Both the position numbers and the translations under genes were made by a program. DNA of 64,000 nt, from NCBI GenBank assembly GCA_000004985.1, contig GG738845.1; one strand, 5' to 3'. Under the pieces are notes generated by a model. It was not told the origin of the DNA. It did no database searches and was given only the letters and a program-made list of their open reading frames with translations. This stretch comes from Naegleria gruberi. Lineage: Eukaryota. How positions within the stretch are numbered: position 1 is the first letter of the stretch; every line of letters starts with the position of its first letter. This document shows positions 10,687-21,280 of the stretch, piece by piece.

Positions 10687-13600
10687 TTAAACATCTTCCC
10701 ATTCGCCCATTATTTCATCATCTTCAAATTCATCTGCAATTTCAAGACCACTTGTTGTATTTCCTAAAAAGAATACAATTTGAAATGCATACTTGTTAAA
10801 GTATTTTCCACTTTGTTCTATTATTGTTGGTTTGTAAAATGATGGATTCAGCAAATCACAAAATTCCTCTGAATCAAAATAAAGCGACGTTCCACTTTTA
10901 CGTTCTTGATAATTCTTCAATTCAATTCTATTATACTTTCTAATTTGAATACTTTCTCTATCAAATGATTCATTTGCAATTAAATATTTAATTTTAAAAA
11001 TGTCAGTGGATTTAAACACTTCTAATAGATCAATAGAAAATAATCCACTTTTTCTTGATATAGGTGTCAGGTAGATATTAATATTATTTCCAAATACGTT
11101 AAAGAGATTGGAGGAGAAATTGTAATCCTCCAATACTTCAAGTGGAGTGAGAATAGAAATATTATGATGACTCATTGGTATATTCTTGGATAATTGTCTA
11201 TCAATCCATGGATGTACTCCATAGAGTGGTGATGCTGAACTCATTGAGAGAGTATTATTTAAAGATGGTGATTTCTCCAATAACTTCATACATACAACAA
11301 TCTTGTAGTCATAAGCATCATTTTTGAATTCTGTGGAGAGAATGGAAAAATGATTTTGTGAAATATTATCCAAGGCATGCTGAAATTTGTGGGAGTGTAC
11401 AGAGTAATGATTTGAATAGTAATAAGGGAAAAAAGCAACATCAACTCTCAAATATTCCAATACTGAGGAAGAATCATCTTCATGTTGTGTCGATTGTAAA
11501 TATAATGAACATGTTGCCAATGTATTATCTTCTCCACTATGAATAGTCATAAACCAATTAAATCCAAATGCTTTGAAAGTTTCAGAATGAACCTTTTTGT
11601 ACATTTCCCATTTGATTGGTTTTGAAATTTCAATACATGTTGTGAATGTATTCTCTCCTTTCCAACAATCAGGTATTGGAGTATATTGTGGAATGACATT
11701 ATTTATACCAGTACCACCCTCGCCAGTGTATAGAAAATTATTGTTATATGCCTTAGCAACCATCAACCCAAAAGGTCTACTCAAAGTAGAGAACCTTGTA
11801 TTACTTGTAAACTGAGAGATACTGTCATGTGAAAATGATTGATGTAGATTAATCTTATTTTCTAGACATTTCTTCATAAATTTATCAACATATTTTTTAA
11901 CACCAGATAAATCTAATAAATCCTCAGCAATTCTTGCAAAATGCTTAGCAATAATGTGTGGAACATTAAAATCCAATAAAATACTCAATGCTAAAAAGGT
12001 ATCCACTGTTGAATTCAATGCAATGAATACTGGAAGTGCCTTAGATAGAGAATAGATTAATGCTTCTCTATCAAATGCGAAATTACCATTCTCAATCTTG
12101 TTGGCGAAATATTTTAACAATTTTGTAAAGGACGATCCGTTCATATAGTCAAAGCTAAATACTGATTGTAAAGTATAGCATAATATAGTGAATCTATATT
12201 CATCTTTGATGGGTAAATCCAACAAGCGACTCATATATAAATTCAATTCCACTAATTTTCTCTCCTTCAATAGATTTGGAATAAGAGTTGCATTCAATTC
12301 TTCAAAGAGATGATTGGCACTCTCTACTTTGATACTCTGTAAATTTTCAGTAATAGTTTTGAGAGCACGTTCCATATTGAATTTTCTTTCCTTAATCTTG
12401 GTACAGAAAAAGTGAAAATCTCTTTCATGTTCCAACAATGAGATTTCATTGATATCCCTGAATTGAGGACAATCCACTAAAAGTAATAATGTTAATTGTT
12501 TCATGGATTTAAATGTAGAGAGTAATTGATTGGTGAGTTGAGAACAACCGTTAAAATAGATGGATTCAATAGGAGAATCATTAGTACATAATTCATTCAC
12601 AATTTCATCTTGAATGGATGATTGTTTCAATTTTAAAACTCTTAATTGAGTTAATGATTGAATATTCTTAACAAATCCCATTTCAGATCCTGAAGGATTT
12701 TCAAAAGATGAAATTGACAAGGTATATATTCTAAGTGGAAGTATCAAATGATTTGGAAATGGAACTGACATGTCTAAAATATTCAGTGTCTCTAGAGTTG
12801 TAAACTCTAATAGACTGATGGCATGATCATATACCATTGATAAATTTCTAAGTTTCTTCTTATTGGTTAGTTTCTTTACAATTTCAGATGTGATCAAATT
12901 ACCAGTGATTGATTCAAGATGAGGTAAAGGAACAATCACCTTTTCTAAATTGTGATTTTCTATCGATGCATCCAAGTGAAGTGATTTAACATTTTGACAT
13001 TTGGAAAGGAATTCAAAATTCATTTGATTTTCAAATCCAGTCACTGAAAGTTCTTTGAGGGACCTTCCAACAAGTACTGGAAGTAAAATGCCTGCTCCTT
13101 CCACTAAATCACAGGATACACTTTCTAAACGATTAAAACTTGAGGTGTCGGAAAGTTTCTTAATTAAATCTTTTGAAAATGAAACTCTTGTCATGAATAA
13201 TAGCTTTAGTTTGTTTAAATTTGGTAAAGAACAAATTGCCTCTAATAATGAATTATTATTTTTGGTAGATTCTATTCCAACAATAAATAAACTCAAATCT
13301 GTCAAATGTTCAACAATTTTTCCAAAAGCATTATTTGGAACAGTTATATCTGCTCTAACAAATAAAGAAAGTGATTTCAACTTGAGAGGTTCCTTAAAAG
13401 TAGTGAAAATTGAATTAGTTAACTGAACATCAGGTATCTCTGGATACATGAAATGGAACGAAGAAAGTTTAGGTAAATTTTTCATTAAAAATTGTGCATT
13501 CTTTTCTGAAACACCTCTCAAACGTAATTCCATTAAATTTGGGCATTGGTTTGGAATGTTTTTTAAAACTGCTGTTGGTAATATGTAATCAACTACTAAC

Positions 13601-14169
13601 TTCTCCAATTTTGAAGGAAATGTTACCTTGATATCCACTGAAATACCATTTCCTATTAAAGTTAATTGTTTCAAATTGGAAAATGATGAAAGTGAAAGGT
13701 TTTCAATATGAAAATCAAAACCACACATCAACAACTCTTCAAGACTATTCACCATTTGAAGCTTTTCATCAATGGCATCTTGTAAAAAGAATCCAGAAAA
13801 GGCATCACACGCCAACAAATCAAGCTTTCTAATTTTACAATTTAAAGATCGGAGAATTTTAAAGAATGATAAATCATCAATTTCTTCTCTAGCCTGAATT
13901 TCATCATTATCAATACTTTCTCTACTATTAATTTCTTGTAAATTTACTAATTTTGATAGATAATACTTGTTAATATTTTCCAATTGACCAGCTTTAACTC
14001 GGTAGGGAAGAATATACGAAGTTTTGTGGGTAATCCAATAATTCCAAATTAATTTGTTAAAATTATGATTGGTAGACTTGAGAGCGATTAAATGATGTTG
14101 TGGAATGAAGGGAAGGAGATGATCAAACAAGACTTCATTGGGAATATCCGAGAGGTGAATGTTGATCAT
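10687..14169 (-). CDS. F-box / leucine-rich-repeat protein (1160 aa) with a C-terminal region containing a possible MATH/TRAF-like domain.
   Basis: ATG at 14169-14167. N-terminal F-box-like motif IHLSDIPNEVLFDHLLPFIPQHHLIALKSTNHNFNKLIWNYW. The central ~400 aa is a long run of L-x-x-L-x-L LRR-like units (LKSLHLD, LRNLSMV, LRVLKLK ...). The C-terminal segment HSETFKAFGFNWFMTIHSGEDNTLATCSLYLQST resembles a MATH core (S..F..GG..W.l.lyP.G....lSlyL); this last call is tentative. Confidence 0.7.
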   Translation of the reverse strand: MINIHLSDIPNEVLFDHLLPFIPQHHLIALKSTNHNFNKLIWNYWITHKTSYILPYRVKAGQLENINKYYLSKLVNLQEINSRESIDNDEIQAREEIDDLSFFKILRSLNCKIRKLDLLACDAFSGFFLQDAIDEKLQMVNSLEELLMCGFDFHIENLSLSSFSNLKQLTLIGNGISVDIKVTFPSKLEKLVVDYILPTAVLKNIPNQCPNLMELRLRGVSEKNAQFLMKNLPKLSSFHFMYPEIPDVQLTNSIFTTFKEPLKLKSLSLFVRADITVPNNAFGKIVEHLTDLSLFIVGIESTKNNNSLLEAICSLPNLNKLKLLFMTRVSFSKDLIKKLSDTSSFNRLESVSCDLVEGAGILLPVLVGRSLKELSVTGFENQMNFEFLSKCQNVKSLHLDASIENHNLEKVIVPLPHLESITGNLITSEIVKKLTNKKKLRNLSMVYDHAISLLEFTTLETLNILDMSVPFPNHLILPLRIYTLSISSFENPSGSEMGFVKNIQSLTQLRVLKLKQSSIQDEIVNELCTNDSPIESIYFNGCSQLTNQLLSTFKSMKQLTLLLLVDCPQFRDINEISLLEHERDFHFFCTKIKERKFNMERALKTITENLQSIKVESANHLFEELNATLIPNLLKERKLVELNLYMSRLLDLPIKDEYRFTILCYTLQSVFSFDYMNGSSFTKLLKYFANKIENGNFAFDREALIYSLSKALPVFIALNSTVDTFLALSILLDFNVPHIIAKHFARIAEDLLDLSGVKKYVDKFMKKCLENKINLHQSFSHDSISQFTSNTRFSTLSRPFGLMVAKAYNNNFLYTGEGGTGINNVIPQYTPIPDCWKGENTFTTCIEISKPIKWEMYKKVHSETFKAFGFNWFMTIHSGEDNTLATCSLYLQSTQHEDDSSSVLEYLRVDVAFFPYYYSNHYSVHSHKFQHALDNISQNHFSILSTEFKNDAYDYKIVVCMKLLEKSPSLNNTLSMSSASPLYGVHPWIDRQLSKNIPMSHHNISILTPLEVLEDYNFSSNLFNVFGNNINIYLTPISRKSGLFSIDLLEVFKSTDIFKIKYLIANESFDRESIQIRKYNRIELKNYQERKSGTSLYFDSEEFCDLLNPSFYKPTIIEQSGKYFNKYAFQIVFFLGNTTSGLEIADEFEDDEIMGEWEDV

Positions 14170-14816
14170 TTTTTTTAAAGGCTTTTCTGAATTTCCTGTT
14201 TTTACCCGATTTTAGATTTTACAACAACAATAAAAATTCAAGAAATGGGTCTTTGATCCCGTGCTGATTTTTCTACACTACCCAACAAGTGCTTCGTCAA
14301 TTGGAATACACTCTTCTAGTACTACTATTTAAACCACTAATAAACATCATATTATTCATCAAATATTTGTCATCATGTCAATTTACCATTGGCAAATCTG
14401 ATACCAGTGTTGATTTTCAGCCCGATATCAAATTATTGAACAATAAAACAATCGAAGTGTAAAGTATACAAACTCCACCCCACACACTTATTTTGATGTG
14501 AATTCACATATTGGTGACTTTAATATTTATATGTTAGAAACTTTGCTTATAAACTGGCTGAATCTAGACTCATAATAGAAGTAGTACATTGATTACTAAT
14601 AACATCATCACAAGTTTAAGATAGTTATCTTTTCGTTGAGTATGAATTGAATTATTAATGTAGTAAATTGACAGAATACTTTGATTTGCCTATGAATTGG
14701 ATTTGTTATTTCCTATTCTGAAATCTTGTTATCATGGTCAATATTTTCTAAATGAAGATTCAGTGTTACATTATCAATTTTCTCTCTGAAGTGCGCAATT
14801 CAATTCGTCAATTATA

Positions 14817-15791
14817 ATGAAATGGGCTGAGACATTACAATTTTCAAAAAAAATGTTAAACGACTCAGTTTCGGTTGTCTTGGACGAAACTATTGAAAGC
14901 AAATTACTGCAAGGAAAATCCATCCACAAATTTATCCCATTCAAGTCATTCGAGAAGATCAAAAGTTATTCATTGGCAGAGATGAATACTCCAGAAACAA
15001 TTGTGATTTACAATGGAAAGATCATTATTGGTGATACTTACAATAACAATTTGGTGACGATTGACATGATTGAAGGTGAAAAGAAAGTTATTGAATTTAA
15101 CGATTCTCCATTCCACCCTTTCCAGATTTATATCGAGAATGGATATAAAAAGGATGGAAAGCAAAGTTATGGATCTGCATTGATATTCTATTGTTTCACT
15201 CAAGGTGTTCAAAAACATGACATGAGGGATGTGTTAAATGAGTGGAATTCATCAAAAGCTATTTGGAAGTTGAATGTGTCATTTGGTTGCATGATCATTG
15301 ATAAAACGAGGGGTGCAATTCATGTGTTTCCAAAGTATGAGTTCTTGTCTGCCTATGTTCCAGTTGTATTTCCTGAAAATACATCCTTTGATCTGGAAAC
15401 TGGAGTAAAATTGAGTGATAACTTCAAGATCAATAGAGAAACATTCACATTTCCAGTATTTGGACCAGATAACTCTGTATTGATTCATGACGGAAATACT
15501 ATTGAGAAATTAATATTGAAAGATGGAGAGTATTCTGATAAGGATATTGGTTTCAGATCTTTGAAGAAAGAAGGAGTGTATAGATTGTATTATGATAACG
15601 AGTTGACTGGACTGTTATTTGTGATTGGAAAGGATTATATTTCTGTATTGGATACTAATCTCATTGAAAAGTATTCTTACCCAATTGATTTTGTTTGCAC
15701 ACAAATAGCTGTCAATAAGGAAACAAGTGAACTATTTGTTTTGAGTGCCAATAACAAGATTTTACATGTTTACAAAATACATACTGATTAA
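14817..15791 (+). CDS. Hypothetical protein (324 aa).
   Basis: ATG at 14817. Single ORF with coding-like composition. No motif recognised. Confidence 0.45.
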   Translation: MKWAETLQFSKKMLNDSVSVVLDETIESKLLQGKSIHKFIPFKSFEKIKSYSLAEMNTPETIVIYNGKIIIGDTYNNNLVTIDMIEGEKKVIEFNDSPFHPFQIYIENGYKKDGKQSYGSALIFYCFTQGVQKHDMRDVLNEWNSSKAIWKLNVSFGCMIIDKTRGAIHVFPKYEFLSAYVPVVFPENTSFDLETGVKLSDNFKINRETFTFPVFGPDNSVLIHDGNTIEKLILKDGEYSDKDIGFRSLKKEGVYRLYYDNELTGLLFVIGKDYISVLDTNLIEKYSYPIDFVCTQIAVNKETSELFVLSANNKILHVYKIHTD

Positions 15792-15858
15792 AGACGCACT
15801 ACTAAACAAATTTATAAATTTAATTGATTTCTCATTAAGAATAGGATTTTTTGCTAAA

Positions 15859-16850
15859 CTAATCCTTTACAATATTAATCCTTAACAAGTGTTCAACTGT
15901 TTCTCTAATCATTACATTATTACCAATGAATTCAGTTAAACCCAATTCTCGTTTAATCTTCTTATTCGAATAATAAGATGGCTTTCCAAGATTACTATTA
16001 ATACCTTGTCTAATTCCTTTTGGTTGAAATAGAGCTATTCCCTTCACTAATAGACTTCCAAGTGCTCCTTCCAAAGATAATGTTGGTAATTTTTTGAGAA
16101 AGTTTCTTTCTGGGAATTCCTTCTTGATTATTTCACATACTTGTCTTATTGAAATAGTTTCATCTCCACATGAAATGAAACGTTCTCCTTTGGATGGTAA
16201 AAATCTAAGTTGATTGTCCATGTCCAGTTCCATGCATTTCACATGTGAAAGAGCAACGTCTTTAACATCTACAAATGTCATGTGCATGTCAATTAGTGCT
16301 GGCTGGCATTTCGCCATTGAGAATTTTAGCTAAAATGTCATGGGATTGGTTGACTTGTTGTGGAAGAATTGGCTTACCAATTACACCACTTGGACAAATA
16401 GTTGCCATTTCAATGAAATCTTCTCCATGTTTAGTTTGCATTTCTTTCATCAACTTCCAAGGCTCTCTGAAGTGACTTTCGAATAAAAATAAGGATTTCT
16501 ATCCACAGTTGACAATTCATTCCAATCATCCTCAGTATAAATCTTATCCTTCTCTGCTGTATCACATATAGCAACAATGGATGAAGTAATAATGATCCTT
16601 TGCAGTCTATTGTGATCTTGAGATGATTGTTCTAATCTGAGCTTGATACATTCATTCAGAATATTCAACGTTCCTTTCACAGCTGGATCCACCAACTCTA
16701 GCTGTGGATCCTTCACAGTTAACTTGTATGGACTAGCAACGTGATGTACAAATCGACATCCCTTATTTTGATTGTAATTAGTGCGCTGTTCAACTCAATT
16801 GAAGTGCTCATATGGAAGTTATCACTTGTTTGTAAAATGGTGTTTATTAA
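15859..16850 (-). pseudogene. Decayed NAD(P)-dependent epimerase/dehydratase gene, cinnamoyl-CoA reductase / dihydroflavonol reductase-like. N-terminal Rossmann exon missing; two compensating frameshifts.
   Basis: ORF pieces 16450-16716 and 15859-16317 share a frame. Their products (CRFVHHVASPYKLTVKDPQLELVDPAVKGTLNILNEC ... YFYSKVTSE and ALIDMHMTFVDVKDVALSHV ... KIKRELGLTEFI ... ETVEHL) align to CCR/DFR-type reductases (DPQAELIDPAVKGTLNVL; WYVLSK; NVKDVANAHI). The intervening ~130 nt encodes the homologous stretch EPWKLMKEMQTKHGEDFIEMATICPSGVIGKPILPQQVNQSHDILAKILNGEMP in a different frame. Entry is by a +2 slip at TCAGAGAGCC (~16450) and exit by a 1-nt slip at GCCAGCCAGC (~16312). Upstream, the frame closes at a TGA after only ~40 codons, with no GxGxxG exon before the neighbouring gene ends at 16847. 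Confidence 0.55.
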
Positions 16851-18132
16851 TTGATTACCAATAAAATTACAACAAAGGTAATTGTGAATAAATAGCTCCA
16901 AATGGTAGCTGCTTGTGATGTTCTTGAAATATCAACATTAATTGATTTGGTATCTGAAAGTGTTTGATAAGTTGCCTTAAGAGAGGCTGAAGATGCAGCT
17001 GTTGCTGACAACTGAACTGAGAAGGAAGCAACACCTTCACTTGCCACTTTAGATTTATCACCAGTTATTGTAATACCAGATGATCCTACCATTTCCAAAG
17101 TGATAGTTCCTGAACCTGATTTGAGAGTATTTCCACTCGAATCCAACATTGAGACAGTTGCAGTGAATGCTGCACCACTATTCACAGAGGATGGAAGTGA
17201 GAGTTTGATACTGGAAGGTTGGGTTGGGTGACTGTGGTGGAGGTTTCACATTTACTACCAGTGTATCCTGAGAAGCATGTACACAAATCTTGACCACTAC
17301 ATGTTCCTTTACTGACAGTAGTACTGGAAGGTGCAATGCCATAACAAGTGAATTGAGATTGAGTGGCAGTCACTGTAAACTCAGCAGATGTCAATGAAGG
17401 AGCAGACATAAATTGGGTATTGATAGAAGCGAATAATTTAACAGTACCAGAGCTTGGTGCAGTGATTTCTGGACCTTTCATAATACCATTAGAAGCCATG
17501 GAAGAGTGTAAAGAACCAGGGTAGGTTAGATCAATTAAATAATTTCTTGGAACAACATTTCCATCACTATCGACAATTCTAACTTCAGGTGTGAATTTGG
17601 ATCCAGCCACAACAAGTGAAGGAGCAATAATAAGCAATTTTGAAGCAGATTTGGAACAAGCGCAATAATTTTGTACATCAACTGAACAGGAGGTAATGCT
17701 ATTCTTACATGAGAGTTTGGTAGTGTAATCAGTGGTATCAAGAATTAAGGAATTAGAGGCACTGAAACATTCTCCAACATTGTACCTGGTTTGTTCTTTA
17801 GAAAATTCAGCCACCTTGACAGAGGTATCAGTGGATGTTGTTTCAATAATGTAGGTGTGGTAGTCACCTTTTGGTGAAACCAAGAGATCCATTGCACTGA
17901 CATAATAACCAGTTGGACATTTGGTAGGACATTTAACTTCAATTGAGAAGAGGAAGGATAAGGTTACACTTCCTCCACATCTAGGACAGGAACATGTGGC
18001 TTGGGATGCTCTCTTTTGAAATAAATTGACTGGTTGGGGAATGTTGGAAGTATCACTTGTGGCAACAGTCAACTCGTAAGCAAAAGTGAAGAGGAATAGA
18101 CAAATGAGTAAAATTATATTAGAAACTTTCAT
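16847..18132 (-). CDS. Secreted, probably GPI-anchored, adhesin-like protein with an EGF-like module and repeated beta-sandwich-like segments. The reading frame is interrupted at ~17183 by a frameshift or sequencing error.
   Basis: ORF 17182-18132 starts with ATG at 18132 and the signal peptide MKVSNIILLICLFLFTFAYELTVA, contains the EGF-like module GTCSGQDLCTCFSGYTGSKCE, and ends ...SNSHFHPL-stop. The adjacent ORF 16847-17185 has no ATG (the track M is GTG). It continues the same repeat type (SGAAFTATVSML vs SAEFTVTATQSQ) and ends in a hydrophobic, GPI-signal-like tail WSYLFTITFVVILLVIN. The 16-nt junction cannot be an intron. Confidence 0.5.
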
Positions 18133-18545
18133 TGTTGTTTTTTTAATACTTTCTCCAGGTGGCCAAGGTTTTCAGCAGCTTTTATTGAGTTTGCCTGAGT
18201 TGTGAATTCTGTGCGTCTTTCAACAACAATCAATATCCAATCATTTTAGTTCCGAAATCATTGTAAATTACATTCTCATATTTCAAATGTCATTGGGGTT
18301 ATTGTTTCTATTGGTAAGTTATGGTTGAGTTTGGTACTTTCAAATTTACAATGAATCTTGCCGTGCAGCAACTTTGAAATTAACAAGAACTGATGCTCTA
18401 ATGTTGTGGCTGATGAATCAGTTGTTTAAAGGCTTAATAACTTCAATGTCTCTTCAAATGTCTCCTTAATTAATGAAAATTTGATTCCTTGTATTTGGAT
18501 TATGATATGTGGTGACAATAATGACAATAATGAAAAAAAATTTCA

Positions 18546-18567
18546 TGAGTGTGGGACTGATAAAATT
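18546..18567 (-). repeat. Duplicated copy of the tRNA 3' terminus (TCCCACACTCATGA) immediately downstream of the tRNA, flanked by T-runs (TTTT and T8).
   Basis: On the minus strand the tRNA end ...TCCCACACTCATCA is followed by AATTTTATCAG, then TCCCACACTCATGA, then AATTTTTTTT. Both runs are read directly from the sequence. The T-runs look like Pol III terminators; the origin of the duplicate is unknown. Confidence 0.4.
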
Positions 18568-18658
18568 TGATGAGTGTGGGATTTGAACCCACGCCCTTGC
18601 GGAACACGGTATTAATCATACCTTAACGTGTCGTCTTAGACCACTCGACCAACTCACC
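18568..18658 (-). tRNA. tRNA-Leu (anticodon AAG) with an 11-nt intron at the canonical 37/38 position.
   Basis: Minus-strand sequence GGTGAGTTGGTCGAGTGGTCTAAGACGACACGTTAAGG[TATGATTAATA]CCGTGTTCCGCAAGGGCGTGGGTTCAAATCCCACACTCATCA. The acceptor stem is GGTGAGT/ACTCATC. The D-loop AGTGGTCTAAG is typical of class II tRNAs. The anticodon stem is ACACG/CGTGT with loop TTAAGG|C. There is a long variable arm, and the T-arm is GGGTTCAAATCCC. Without the intron it is collinear with human tRNA-Leu-AAG. The intron lies at about 18620-18610. Confidence 0.8.
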
Positions 18659-18773
18659 ATCTGTAAATTTTATAAATATTACTATTATGTTGATTTTTGA
18701 GGAGATATTTTTACGTTGGTCAAAAATGAAATTAAATATTACCGTATTAGAAAGTAGGCGGGAAGGTTTGAAA

Positions 18774-18950: not shown

Positions 18951-20120
18951 ATGCAAGCTCAAGTCAATTTTAATCAAATCAAGTCATCAATCTTTGTTCC
19001 TTTGGATAAGAAGAAATCTGATCAACATTGTTCTCTCCTTTTCAGCAATCTAATTGGTACTGCTTTACAATTCAGAGACAACAAGTACACATACTGTGGA
19101 TCATATGATCTTTCACAGTGGTTGGTTCTCTGCTTTAATACTATGGTCAAACAAGATGAGAAGTTATTTGCAGATATTGTTATCCCATTGGTAGCATATA
19201 TTTCGATTGTTGACGATGCATGTGATGAGAAGATTACAGACATCTCTATTGAAGAGATGAAATCACATTGCATGATATTTAGAGGTGAATCTGTACAAGC
19301 AACAAACCCAGCTCACAAGATGGGAAAACTCGTCTATAATTTGATCAAAGACAGTAGATTCGATGGAATTAGAGGAAAGATTTTAGAATTCTTGACCGTT
19401 GGAACCAATCTCATAGAGAAGGCAAAGAATGAATGCGAAAATAATGGACTTGTCTCTGAAGAAACCTTGCTTGCCTTTTTGAAAGAAAGAAGAGTCGACT
19501 CAATGTCCTCTCTTTTCTTTACTATTAATAATTTCTTTAATGACATTCCAGAGATCGATACATGCGATCACGTCATTGAATATAACCACTTGGCATGTGA
19601 CATTATCAGTTTGTTCAATGATGTTGCCTCAATCGCTAAAGATGCCAAGAAGGTTGTTAACAATTATATCATTTTGAATAAGGGCTTGAAAGAGGGCATG
19701 TCATACAGCCAACTTAAACAACTCCCAGTTGAAGCCTTTGATTCATCCCTCAATGAAGTATTGGAATTAATCAAAGAGAAATTGCAACAAATGGAAACAA
19801 TCAAATCCTCCAACCCAGACAACTCCAAACAATTTGAATCCATCGATGAAGTGATGAAAGGATATTGTACTTGGTGCATCATTTCAAAGAGATTCCAACA
19901 TTCTAACCACCTCCTTCCTGAATACCATTCCAAAAAATCAGTACTCAAGGCAATGATTGAAACTGTGTTAATGCCATTCCTCAAACCTTGGTCTGATAAT
20001 GATATGCTCACCTATCTTGATGATATTGAAAATTCCATGAAGAAATCCTCCTTTTCAAGCATATTGGACTCATTTGCCTACTCTATCGGAAAATTTTGCT
20101 CTTTTTCAATCACTAATTAA
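18951..20120 (+). CDS. Class I terpene synthase, microbial-type (trichodiene-synthase-like fold), 389 aa, intronless.
   Basis: ATG at 18951. Aspartate-rich motif IVDDACDE (DDxxD) at about aa 86-93. NSE/DTE-type second metal-binding motif FNDVASIAKD (N-D-x-x-S-x-x-x-D) about 135 aa downstream, the spacing expected for class I terpene cyclases. Size (~45 kDa) and alpha-helical composition are also consistent. Confidence 0.8.
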   Translation: MQAQVNFNQIKSSIFVPLDKKKSDQHCSLLFSNLIGTALQFRDNKYTYCGSYDLSQWLVLCFNTMVKQDEKLFADIVIPLVAYISIVDDACDEKITDISIEEMKSHCMIFRGESVQATNPAHKMGKLVYNLIKDSRFDGIRGKILEFLTVGTNLIEKAKNECENNGLVSEETLLAFLKERRVDSMSSLFFTINNFFNDIPEIDTCDHVIEYNHLACDIISLFNDVASIAKDAKKVVNNYIILNKGLKEGMSYSQLKQLPVEAFDSSLNEVLELIKEKLQQMETIKSSNPDNSKQFESIDEVMKGYCTWCIISKRFQHSNHLLPEYHSKKSVLKAMIETVLMPFLKPWSDNDMLTYLDDIENSMKKSSFSSILDSFAYSIGKFCSFSITN

Positions 20121-20422: not shown

Positions 20423-21280
20423 ATGTTCAGACAAGGTTTGCTCTCACTCTCCTCATCATTAAAAACCGTCTCGGGTTCTTCAAATTTGTTCGCTCGAGGC
20501 TTTTCCAAGCAATTATCTGGTGTTGTTGCTTTAAATTCCTCCCAATCATCTCTTCTTCAATTTACATCATCACTCAATGTTCAACAAACTAGATGTTATG
20601 CCATCCCTAGAAAAGTTAGAACTAAACTCTGGTATGAACAACAGGAAAAGGAAAAAGTGGACGGAAAGGGTAGAATTAAATATGCTAGACAACAACCTGA
20701 AGTTAACAATACTTTTATTCTTCAACAATTGTCTGTTCTGAAGAAGAATCGTAATTGGAAGAGAGCATACACTATCTTTAAGAGAATCTCAGAAACCAAG
20801 GCCAGACCAAAGGCTGAAGTTTTTCAAATGTTGTTGTACACAATCGGATATAGAGGAGGTCAAATGAAAGAAGCTTTTGAAGTTTTTAATTACATGAAAA
20901 AATGCCAAAAGGATGTTAAATCATACAATGTTATGCTCCACGCTTGTTCAAAGTATCCAGTTGAAATGAATACATATATTCGGGATCATGATGAAACAAC
21001 AAATTCATTCAACACTGCTGTTAAAATATATAATGAAATCAAGGAACGTAAGATTACGTCGTTCACCATTTCCTACATGGCCAAGTGTGTTGAAAGTGCT
21101 GTTCAACAAAATCTCTTGGATGAAGCTGGTAAACAAGAATGGATTCAAACTCTCCAACAAGATGGTGAAGCATTCCTCCAAAATCCAAATGTTCAAAAAG
21201 CATTGACACAAGCTGCTCAAGCTGTTTCCACTGTTGTTGAAAAAGTTGAACCTGTTGCCGAACAAAAACAACAAGCCTAA
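20423..21280 (+). CDS. Probable mitochondrial protein with PPR-like helical repeats (285 aa).
   Basis: ATG at 20423. The N-terminus is Ser/Arg-rich and presequence-like (MFRQGLLSLSSSLKTVSGSSNLFARGFSK). The middle has PPR/TPR-like repeats (YNVMLHACSKY..., AFEVFNYMKK...). Confidence 0.45.
   Translation: MFRQGLLSLSSSLKTVSGSSNLFARGFSKQLSGVVALNSSQSSLLQFTSSLNVQQTRCYAIPRKVRTKLWYEQQEKEKVDGKGRIKYARQQPEVNNTFILQQLSVLKKNRNWKRAYTIFKRISETKARPKAEVFQMLLYTIGYRGGQMKEAFEVFNYMKKCQKDVKSYNVMLHACSKYPVEMNTYIRDHDETTNSFNTAVKIYNEIKERKITSFTISYMAKCVESAVQQNLLDEAGKQEWIQTLQQDGEAFLQNPNVQKALTQAAQAVSTVVEKVEPVAEQKQQA

What the first reader, a model, noticed from the sequence alone, without database searches (positions are those of the whole stretch)
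15859..16850. Decayed CCR/DFR-like NAD(P)-reductase next to the terpene synthase: compensating frameshifts and a missing Rossmann exon
Three in-window segments each align to cinnamoyl-CoA / dihydroflavonol-reductase-like enzymes, but the middle ~130 nt is in a different frame from the flanks. Entry is by a +2 slip at TCAGAGAGCC and exit by a 1-nt slip at GCCAGCCAGC. The N-terminal nucleotide-binding exon is absent; the frame closes ~40 codons upstream and the next gene ends at 16847. Either this is a genuine pseudogene of a reductase that once sat 2 kb from the TPS, possibly a former tailoring enzyme, or two indel errors fall in a simple-repeat context. The adjacent adhesin gene also has a frame interruption, so the 16.3-17.2 kb interval is either decaying or poorly sequenced.
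Basis: seen in the sequence. Interest (0 to 1): 0.5.

Follow-up and report, generated by a model that had tools for sequence, protein, structure and literature searches.

The report
Dead reductase gene in Naegleria gruberi
This is the broken remnant of a duplicated NAD(P)H-dependent reductase gene in the amoeba Naegleria gruberi; it is an ordinary decaying pseudogene, not a sequencing artefact, and nothing links it to the nearby terpene synthase.

Summary
On the minus strand of window 15859-16765 lie three collinear pieces of a CCR/DFR/GRE2-like extended short-chain dehydrogenase/reductase. The outer two share a frame and the middle ~160 nt is in another. The first ~87 codons, including the Rossmann motif, are missing.

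The window is Naegleria gruberi NEG-M. An independent metagenome contig (L001, 98-99% identical) shows what happened:
- **350-bp deletion** (junction 16766|16765): NEG-M lost the 5' leader, the ATG and codons 1-87.
- **Net 4-nt loss** (16461-16464): NEG-M only.
- **4-bp tandem duplication, CCAG** (16299-16306): present in both assemblies, so it is a real mutation that predates their split.

L001 has lesions of its own: a Gly-to-Arg change in TGxxGxxG and a 2-nt deletion. The gene is therefore dead in both strains. The frameshifts "compensate" only arithmetically (-4, +4), because the shifted stretch contains four stops.

The public annotation calls the last 142 codons a "predicted protein" (D2UX17). 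A paralogue 86% identical (D2VW02) lies on another scaffold, and its model leaves the correct frame after residue 263.

I found no support for a terpene-tailoring role. No reductase copy shares a scaffold with the other two terpene synthase paralogues, and no other biosynthetic genes lie nearby. Interest is low.

The parts
15859..16765 (-). Whole reductase remnant: about 300 of an original ~387 codons of a CCR/DFR/GRE2-like extended SDR, with stop codon TAG at 15859-15861.
   Evidence: tblastn homology to P0001, P0003 and P0005 starts at 16764/16761 and ends at 15865/15880.
16464..16765 (-). Segment A (frame): KGCRFVHHVASP...ITSS...YFYSKVTSE. It retains the catalytic Ser (TSS) and the YxxxK motif.
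16765..16766 (-). Junction of a 350-bp deletion relative to L001. The deletion removed the 5' leader, the ATG and codons 1-87, including the TGxxGxxG Rossmann motif. The junction is blunt, with no microhomology.
16767..16846 (-). Retained stub of the original intergenic region between the adhesin-like gene's stop codon and the reductase promoter. It is not coding. It accounts for the apparent in-frame codons VEQRTNYNQN.
   Evidence: It is collinear with L001 1684-1764, which lies about 90 nt upstream of the L001 ATG.
16461..16464 (-). First frameshift, a net 4-nt loss. L001 and the paralogue read TCAGAGAAGGCTGCTTGG (S-E-K-A-A-W); NEG-M reads TCAGAGAGCCTTGG. It is specific to NEG-M.
16303..16460 (-). 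Segment B, in the shifted frame: WKLMKEMQTKHGEDFIEMATICPSGVIGKPILPQQVNQSHDILAKILNGEMPA. The invariant Asn of the NP motif is replaced by Cys.
16299..16306 (-). Second frameshift, a 4-bp tandem duplication: CCAGCCAG where the ancestral sequence was CCAG. It is shared by NEG-M and L001. Removing one copy restores NGEMPALIDMHMTF, which aligns without gaps to the paralogue's NGEMPALIAMYMTF.
15859..16302 (-). Segment C, back in the frame of A: ALIDMHMTFVDVKDVALSHVKCMELD...INIVKD*.
15859..16287 (-). The current public gene model on this remnant: NAEGRDRAFT_61603 / EFC50856.1 / D2UX17, a 142-aa 'predicted protein'. It is just the C-terminal fragment of the pseudogene.
16847..18132 (-). Upstream neighbour (context only): a secreted EGF-containing adhesin-like gene. 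In NEG-M it is split into 316-aa and 112-aa ORFs by a 5-bp tandem duplication at 17225-17229. In L001 it is one intact ORF.
18951..20120 (+). Terpene synthase NAEGRDRAFT_61605 / D2UX19 (context only). It is intact and lies on the opposite strand. It is separated from the remnant by the adhesin-like gene and a tRNA gene.

Best explanation
The locus is a non-functional, duplicated (non-processed) pseudogene of an intronless NAD(P)H-dependent aldehyde/ketone reductase. The parent enzyme belongs to the CCR/DFR/GRE2-like branch of the extended short-chain dehydrogenase/reductase superfamily. The genome is Naegleria gruberi NEG-M.

Inferred order of events:
1. A gene duplication produced this copy and D2VW02 (86% amino-acid identity).
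2. A 4-bp replication-slippage duplication (CCAG) at codon ~245 broke the frame before NEG-M and the strain represented by contig L001 separated.
3. Freed from selection, each lineage accumulated its own damage. NEG-M lost 350 bp (5' leader, start codon, Rossmann motif) and a net 4 nt at codon ~190. L001 gained a Gly-to-Arg change in the glycine-rich motif and a 2-nt deletion at codons 43-44.

The '-4 then +4' compensation is a coincidence of arithmetic. The 160-nt shifted stretch holds four stops and the start codon is gone, so no reductase can be made.

What is shown: the lesions, their distribution between the two assemblies, the family assignment, and the existence of the paralogue. What is inferred: the order of events, slippage as the mechanism, and lack of expression.
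For: - **Organism.** Four neighbouring ORFs are letter-identical to N. gruberi proteins from one 1.56-Mb scaffold.
- **Family.** phmmer against PDB gives DFR 2e-21, methylglyoxal reductase 6e-16 and CCR 8e-15. Pfam Epimerase and 3Beta_HSD hits are sub-threshold on the remnant. Pfam Epimerase rises to 49 bits when L001's N-terminus is added. The catalytic TSS and YxxxK motifs are present.
- **Lesions.** Base-by-base alignment with L001 shows the 350-bp deletion, the net 4-nt loss and the shared CCAG duplication. tblastn of the paralogue against L001 needs three frames and shows TRGTGF where the paralogue has TGGTGF.
- **Relaxed constraint (weak).** At columns invariant in eight outgroups, the pseudogene has 3 private changes and the paralogue has 0. 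The three are Gly to Arg in the glycine-rich motif, Leu to Met, and Asn to Cys in the NP motif.
- **No rescue copy nearby.** No N-terminal piece or second copy occurs anywhere in the 64-kb window.
- **Intact relatives exist.** Full-length relatives of 395-396 aa occur as single ORFs in environmental contigs, so the ancestral form was an intronless ~390-aa gene.
Against: - No read data or RNA data could be examined, so the three NEG-M-specific lesions rest on one assembly.
- The remnant is still well conserved: 86% identical to the paralogue, with few substitutions. Only 5 SNPs separate it from L001 (3 synonymous, 2 non-synonymous by my count). Neutral evolution therefore cannot be demonstrated statistically.
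- The C-terminal 142 codons form an open ORF that is annotated as a gene. Expression of a fragment is not excluded.
Confidence: 0.9

Rival explanations
1. The gene is intact in the organism, and the frame changes and missing N-terminus are sequencing or assembly errors in the NEG-M scaffold.
For: Both small lesions lie in short repeat contexts (AGAG, GCCAGCCA). A third frame break occurs about 900 bp away in the adhesin-like gene. The three NEG-M-only lesions could not be checked against reads.
Against: The CCAG duplication is present base for base in the independent contig L001. L001 also has different disabling lesions, so the gene is broken whichever assembly is used. Indels of 4-5 bp and a clean 350-bp deletion are not typical base-calling errors; that judgement rests on general knowledge.
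Confidence: 0.03
2. The locus still encodes something useful: the annotated 142-aa ORF (D2UX17, the C-terminal substrate-binding fragment) is expressed as a stand-alone protein or regulatory transcript.
For: The 142/152-codon ORF is open in both NEG-M and L001, with one amino-acid difference. JGI annotated it as a gene.
Against: - It lacks the nucleotide-binding domain and the catalytic residues.
- It has no Pfam domain of its own; the L001 152-aa ORF has no hit.
- Its promoter region is gone in NEG-M.
- An ORF of this length is expected to stay open in a young pseudogene.
- No independent homologue with this truncated architecture turned up.
Confidence: 0.04
3. Before it died, the reductase was a tailoring enzyme of the adjacent terpene synthase, making this a degenerate two-gene terpenoid cluster. 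This reading is compatible with the pseudogene verdict.
For: The remnant lies about 2.1 kb from an intact TPS. SDR reductases do tailor terpenoids in other organisms; that point is general knowledge and was not tested here.
Against: - An unrelated adhesin-like gene and a tRNA gene sit between the two, and the TPS is on the other strand.
- No other biosynthetic genes occur within about ±12 kb. The neighbours carry EGF/fibrinogen, DUF4116, PPR, RGS, BRO1, villin-headpiece and Prp31 domains.
- The two other N. gruberi TPS paralogues lie on scaffolds of 530 kb and 1.0 Mb, while the reductase paralogue lies on a 304-kb scaffold. No second TPS-reductase pairing exists.
- The TPS has stayed intact while the reductase decayed in two strains.
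Confidence: 0.08

Closest known systems
N. gruberi D2VW02 / XP_002671736 / EFC38992, annotated '3-beta hydroxysteroid dehydrogenase/isomerase family protein' (P0003), the paralogue in the same genome
   Same: It is 86-87% identical in protein sequence over the shared ~175-260 residues. It has the same lineage-specific inserts and the same TSS and YxxxK motifs.
   Different: It has an intact N-terminus (MSIRVCVTGGTGF) and is in frame across both sites that are broken here. It lies on a different scaffold of 304 kb. Its own model (288 aa) leaves the correct frame after residue 263: its last 24 residues match the out-of-frame translation of this locus. Whether it is intact is unresolved.
Plant dihydroflavonol-4-reductase and cinnamoyl-CoA reductase, and yeast GRE2-type methylglyoxal or ketone reductases (PDB 4qtz, 4r1u, 4r1s, 6kws, 4pvc, 2c29)
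   Same: It shares the extended-SDR fold family, with collinear alignment from about residue 73 onward. The motifs ASP...DPQ.ELVDPAVKGT.N, TSS and YxxSK...AW are shared.
   Different: The match is only E of about 1e-21 to 1e-11, with low identity outside the motifs. The heterolobosean clade carries two extra inserts. The CCR signature NWYCY, which I recall from memory, reads NPYFYSK here. The substrate is therefore unknown, and the names 'CCR' or 'DFR' should not be taken literally.
Environmental full-length homologues P0001 (396 aa, same metagenome sample as L001) and P0002 (395 aa)
   Same: They are 54-56% identical over 96% of the remnant, have the same inserts, and are intronless single ORFs.
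   Different: They are intact, with the complete Rossmann motif. Their source organisms are unknown, and they have no TPS neighbour on their short contigs.
Duplicated (non-processed) pseudogenes in general
   Same: There is a parent-like paralogue in the genome. The copy decayed in place, with its original 5' flank still recognisable in L001. It has frameshifts, a truncating deletion, and loss of invariant residues.
   Different: Nothing unusual. Because the parent gene is intronless, absence of introns cannot separate a processed from a non-processed origin. The retained upstream leader in L001 and the absence of a poly(A) tract after the stop codon favour a non-processed origin.

Membership tests
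Extended SDR, CCR/DFR/GRE2-like reductase (functional enzyme) | N-terminal Rossmann glycine-rich motif TGxxGxxG | tested here: not met
   It is absent from the window. Homology starts at reference residue ~73 and no N-terminal piece occurs anywhere in the 64 kb. In L001 the motif is present but mutated to TRGTGF.
Extended SDR, CCR/DFR/GRE2-like reductase (functional enzyme) | Catalytic Ser plus YxxxK | tested here: met
   ITSS and YFYSK are present in segment A and align to the catalytic positions of 4qtz and the homologues.
Extended SDR, CCR/DFR/GRE2-like reductase (functional enzyme) | Significant collinear sequence similarity to family members | tested here: met
   phmmer against PDB gives E = 2e-21. 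Homologues reach E = 7e-113. Pfam Epimerase scores 49 bits with the L001 N-terminus but is sub-threshold (18 bits against a cut-off of 20.9) for the NEG-M remnant alone.
Extended SDR, CCR/DFR/GRE2-like reductase (functional enzyme) | Uninterrupted ORF of ~320-400 codons with a start codon | tested here: not met
   There are two frame changes, four stops in the shifted stretch, and no ATG or N-terminus.
Bona fide cinnamoyl-CoA reductase | CCR signature motif NWYCY around the catalytic Tyr (recalled from the literature, not checked here against a reference) | tested here: not met
   The sequence at that position is NPYFYSK. It is best described as CCR/DFR-like only.
Pseudogene (duplicated, non-processed) | Disabling lesions that are real mutations, not sequencing errors | tested here: met
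   The CCAG duplication is identical in the independent contig L001, and L001 has additional lesions of its own. The NEG-M-only lesions were not verified against reads.
Pseudogene (duplicated, non-processed) | Parent or paralogous gene in the same genome | tested here: met
   D2VW02 lies on a 304-kb scaffold and is 86% identical.
Pseudogene (duplicated, non-processed) | Evidence of relaxed selection | tested here: inconclusive
   Private changes at invariant columns are 3 for the pseudogene and 0 for the paralogue. Only 5 SNPs separate it from L001. The numbers are too small for a test.
Pseudogene (duplicated, non-processed) | No functional transcript or protein | not testable with these tools
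   No RNA-seq or proteomics data were available.
Terpenoid biosynthetic gene cluster (TPS plus tailoring reductase) | Conserved co-localisation of TPS and reductase across paralogues or species, or further pathway genes nearby | tested here: not met
   The TPS paralogues and the reductase paralogue lie on different scaffolds. The neighbours are unrelated. Other Naegleria genomes could not be examined.

The most novel reading that the evidence does not exclude
NEG-M, a laboratory strain, may have no working copy of this heterolobosean reductase subfamily. This copy is dead, and the only paralogue's model (D2VW02) goes out of frame after residue 263. The three NEG-M-specific disruptive lesions within 1.3 kb are the 350-bp deletion, the 4-nt loss, and the 5-bp duplication that truncates the neighbouring adhesin-like surface protein. 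They might reflect gene decay during laboratory or axenic propagation, or a local slippage-prone hotspot, rather than ordinary strain divergence.
Probability: 0.12. Interest if true: 0.3.

Novelty: new member of a known kind. Interest (0 to 1): 0.15.

Why it matters
The practical value is modest.

- **Annotation.** NAEGRDRAFT_61603 / D2UX17, a 142-aa 'predicted protein', is a pseudogene fragment and should not count as a protein-coding gene or an orphan family. NAEGRDRAFT_61604 / D2UX18 (316 aa) is a truncated allele of a longer protein.
- **Worked example.** An environmental contig from a near-identical strain can separate real frameshifts from assembly errors without read data.
- **Terpene biology.** It removes a tempting but unsupported 'terpene cluster' reading in a protist whose terpene synthases are of comparative interest (PMC6902781).

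It opens no new biological question.

Tried and rejected
- **Introns as the cause of the frame changes.** Rejected. Homology runs without interruption across both junctions, and the differences from L001 and the paralogue are only 4 nt.
- **Fetching the N. gruberi scaffolds (this locus and the paralogue) by exact protein look-up.** The TPS and P0003 are 'not on record'. The paralogue's DNA, and therefore its integrity and neighbours, could not be examined.
- **Scanning JGI metagenome contigs with the paralogue protein.** Only relatives of 44% identity or less were found. None was Naegleria-like, and none was useful for synteny.
- **Searching for TPS homologues outside N. gruberi to test synteny.** Only the two N. 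gruberi paralogues were returned.
- **Recall of the homologue search.** It is incomplete. One search did not list D2UX17 or the L001 ORFs, although they are in the collection. Absence of hits there is weak evidence.
- **Microhomology or direct repeats at the 350-bp deletion junction.** No repeat longer than 6 nt was found.
- **Literature on project PRJEB11402.** Nothing was found.
- **Rfam scan of the whole window.** It found only one tRNA.
- **A second copy or a displaced N-terminal exon in the window.** None was found.

Full report
**Where the window comes from.** The window is AT-rich, about 33% G+C. Four long ORFs around the finding are letter-identical to Naegleria gruberi proteins that all come from one 1,555,553-bp scaffold:
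- 10687-14169, minus strand: D2UX15.
- 17182-18132, minus strand: D2UX18.
- 18951-20120, plus strand: D2UX19, with Pfam Terpene_syn_C_2.
- 20423-21280, plus strand: D2UX20.

The window is therefore the sequenced strain of N. gruberi; the report calls this strain NEG-M from prior knowledge, since no tool output names it.

**Checking the observation.** I translated the minus strand of 15859-16850 in all three frames.
- One frame reads ...KGCRFVHHVASPYKLTVKDPQLELVDPAVKGTLNILNEC...RIIITSSIVAICDTAEKDKIYTEDDWNELSTVDRNPYFYSKVTSE, which is segment A.
- After a stretch with four stops, the same frame resumes with ALIDMHMTFVDVKDVALSHVKCMELD...ETVEHLLRINIVKD*, which is segment C.
- The intervening ~160 nt reads WKLMKEMQTKHGEDFIEMATICPSGVIGKPILPQQVNQSHDILAKILNGEMPA in a different frame. 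This is segment B.

Segment B alone matches the N. gruberi paralogue at 80% identity over 56 residues, E = 3e-34.

The conceptually joined protein hits solved structures of dihydroflavonol 4-reductase (2e-21), NADPH-dependent methylglyoxal reductase (6e-16) and cinnamoyl-CoA reductase (8e-15). Its residue 11 aligns to about residue 73 of the references. The Pfam Epimerase and 3Beta_HSD matches fall just below threshold on the remnant.

**The decisive comparison.** The 316-aa adhesin-like neighbour clusters with a 461-aa ENA protein. Its contig, L001, is 5,136 bp and comes from sample ERZ929261, run ERR1078381. It aligns to window 13756-18531 at 97.7-99.2% identity. L001 is therefore a near-identical strain that was sequenced and assembled independently.

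Base-by-base alignment shows four things in and around the reductase:
1. **350 bp missing from NEG-M.** L001 has 350 bp (L001 1765-2114) that NEG-M lacks between window 16766 and 16765. This stretch holds an A-rich leader, an ATG and the N-terminal coding region MSIHVCVTRGTGFVASHLVYQLLLKGYYVHTTIRDLKKKNEL...ALLQYHKENSTDESSALLSNQVLDERLSIFESDLMKEGSFSEVI. It runs straight into KGCRFVHH. The 'missing Rossmann exon' is thus a deletion of the first ~87 codons plus the promoter-proximal region of an intronless gene. The junction is blunt.
2. L001 reads TCAGAGAAGGCTGCTTGG (S-E-K-A-A-W), identical in protein to the paralogue. NEG-M reads TCAGAGAGCCTTGG, a net loss of 4 nt that is specific to NEG-M.
3. 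Both NEG-M and L001 read ATGCCAGCCAGCACTA. Removing one CCAG gives NGEMPALIDMHMTF, which aligns without gaps to the paralogue's NGEMPALIAMYMTF and to all other homologues. This is a 4-bp tandem duplication shared by two independent assemblies. It is a real mutation that predates their divergence.
4. **L001's own damage.** The first glycine of the nucleotide-binding motif is Arg (TRGTGF against TGGTGF). A 2-nt deletion at codons 43-44 puts the N-terminal 42 codons out of frame with the rest. tblastn of the paralogue against L001 needs three frames.

The gene is therefore broken in both strains, by one shared lesion and by different private ones. That pattern is what an inactivated gene decaying independently in two lineages should look like.

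**On 'compensating' frameshifts.** Frames A and C coincide because the events are -4 and +4. Three facts together mean no product can be made:
- The shared +4 event came first.
- The -4 event lies 160 nt upstream of it, and the stretch between them has four stops in the resulting frame.
- NEG-M has also lost the start codon.

Roughly one random second indel in three would restore the frame, so this needs no selective explanation.

**Family and likely former function.** Full-length relatives exist: P0001 (396 aa, from the same metagenome sample as L001) and P0002 (395 aa). Both are single uninterrupted ORFs and are 54-56% identical to the remnant.

With L001's N-terminus added, the conceptual 387-aa protein passes the Pfam Epimerase threshold at 49 bits. 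The catalytic Ser (TSS) and YxxxK (YFYSK) are retained.

The heterolobosean clade carries two inserts relative to plant DFR and CCR. It does not show the CCR signature as I recall it. 'CCR/DFR-like NAD(P)H-dependent aldehyde/ketone reductase, substrate unknown' is as far as the evidence goes.

At alignment columns invariant in eight outgroups, the pseudogene has three private replacements and the paralogue has none:
- Gly to Arg in the glycine-rich motif.
- Leu to Met.
- Asn to Cys in the conserved NP motif.

This is weak but consistent evidence of relaxed constraint. Only five SNPs separate NEG-M from L001 within the remnant, too few for a dN/dS test.

**Paralogue.** N. gruberi D2VW02 (P0003, 288 aa, on a 304-kb scaffold) is 86% identical. 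It has the intact N-terminus and is in frame at both sites that are broken here.

Its last 24 residues (FYHPKENVSFVVEMKPSQLDKYVK) match the out-of-frame translation of this locus. The model thus leaves the correct frame after residue 263. Back-reading that tail in the correct frame would give ...FLPSKGERFICCGDETISIRQVCEI; this is my inference from the pseudogene's DNA. Either the paralogue has a lesion near codon 264-275 or the model is wrong. I could not fetch its DNA, so whether NEG-M has any intact copy is open.

**Annotation.** The public annotation places a gene on the remnant: EFC50856.1 / D2UX17 / NAEGRDRAFT_61603, a 142-aa 'predicted protein', which equals window 15859-16287. This is the C-terminal fragment of the pseudogene.

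**The terpene synthase link.** The TPS (18951-20120, plus strand) is intact. It is separated from the remnant by the adhesin-like gene and a tRNA gene.

Nothing else biosynthetic lies within about 12 kb on either side. The neighbours carry these domains:
- EGF and fibrinogen-like.
- DUF4116.
- PPR.
- RGS.
- BRO1.
- Villin headpiece.
- Prp31.

A large 1160-aa neighbour has no Pfam domain.

N. gruberi has two further TPS paralogues, on scaffolds of 530 kb and 1.0 Mb. The reductase paralogue is on a 304-kb scaffold, so there is no second TPS-reductase pairing. N. gruberi TPSs have been used in published phylogenies (PMC6902781). I found nothing that links them to a reductase. The 'former tailoring enzyme' idea rests on adjacency alone.

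**The neighbouring adhesin-like gene.** In L001 it is one ORF. Prodigal-style calling gives 461 aa. The likely true start is MKVSNIILL..., a signal-peptide-like N-terminus; that is my inference.

In NEG-M a 5-bp tandem duplication (ACCCA at 17225-17229) shifts the frame. This yields the annotated 316-aa D2UX18 and orphans the last 112 codons, which include the hydrophobic C-terminal tail. The two other indels in this gene are in frame (6 nt and 3 nt).

**Verdict.** This is a genuine, young, duplicated pseudogene of an SDR reductase. It is mis-annotated as a small predicted protein. This is an ordinary kind of feature and its interest is low.

Noticed in passing
window 16847-18132 (minus strand); duplication at 17225-17229: The adhesin-like secreted EGF-domain gene is truncated in NEG-M by a 5-bp tandem duplication (ACCCA). 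The annotated D2UX18 (316 aa) is the N-terminal part only. A 98-99% identical environmental strain (L001) has one intact ORF with a hydrophobic C-terminal tail.
   Followed up: yes
window 18567-18659 (minus strand): A 91-93-nt tRNA gene lies between the adhesin-like gene and the TPS (Rfam tRNA, 47 bits). ARAGORN could not name the anticodon. By eye it looks like an intron-containing type-II tRNA with a long variable arm, probably Leu with anticodon AAG.
   Followed up: partly
paralogue D2VW02 / P0003 (another N. gruberi scaffold, not in the window): The annotated 288-aa model of the only reductase paralogue ends with 24 residues that match the out-of-frame translation of this locus. That gene is therefore either also damaged near codon 264 or mis-modelled.
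   Followed up: partly
window 14817-15791 (plus strand); L001 4056-4063: The 324-aa ORF of unknown function has no Pfam hit, and its exact sequence is not in the protein collection, so the public model differs. It has an 8-nt indel relative to L001 immediately after its start codon, so the N-terminus differs between strains.
   Followed up: no
L002 (ERZ929261 contig k127_582519, 1236 bp): The metagenome sample that yielded the N. gruberi-like contig L001 also contains an intact, intronless 396-aa member of this reductase clade (P0001, 56% identical, contig G+C 37%). No close counterpart was returned from the NEG-M proteome. It may come from another heterolobosean, or it may be a gene that NEG-M lacks.
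   Followed up: partly
window 18951-20120 (TPS) and its paralogues P0036 and P0037: N. gruberi has at least three TPS paralogues (68-70% identical) on three different scaffolds. The word-indexed search found no close homologue outside N. gruberi.
   Followed up: partly
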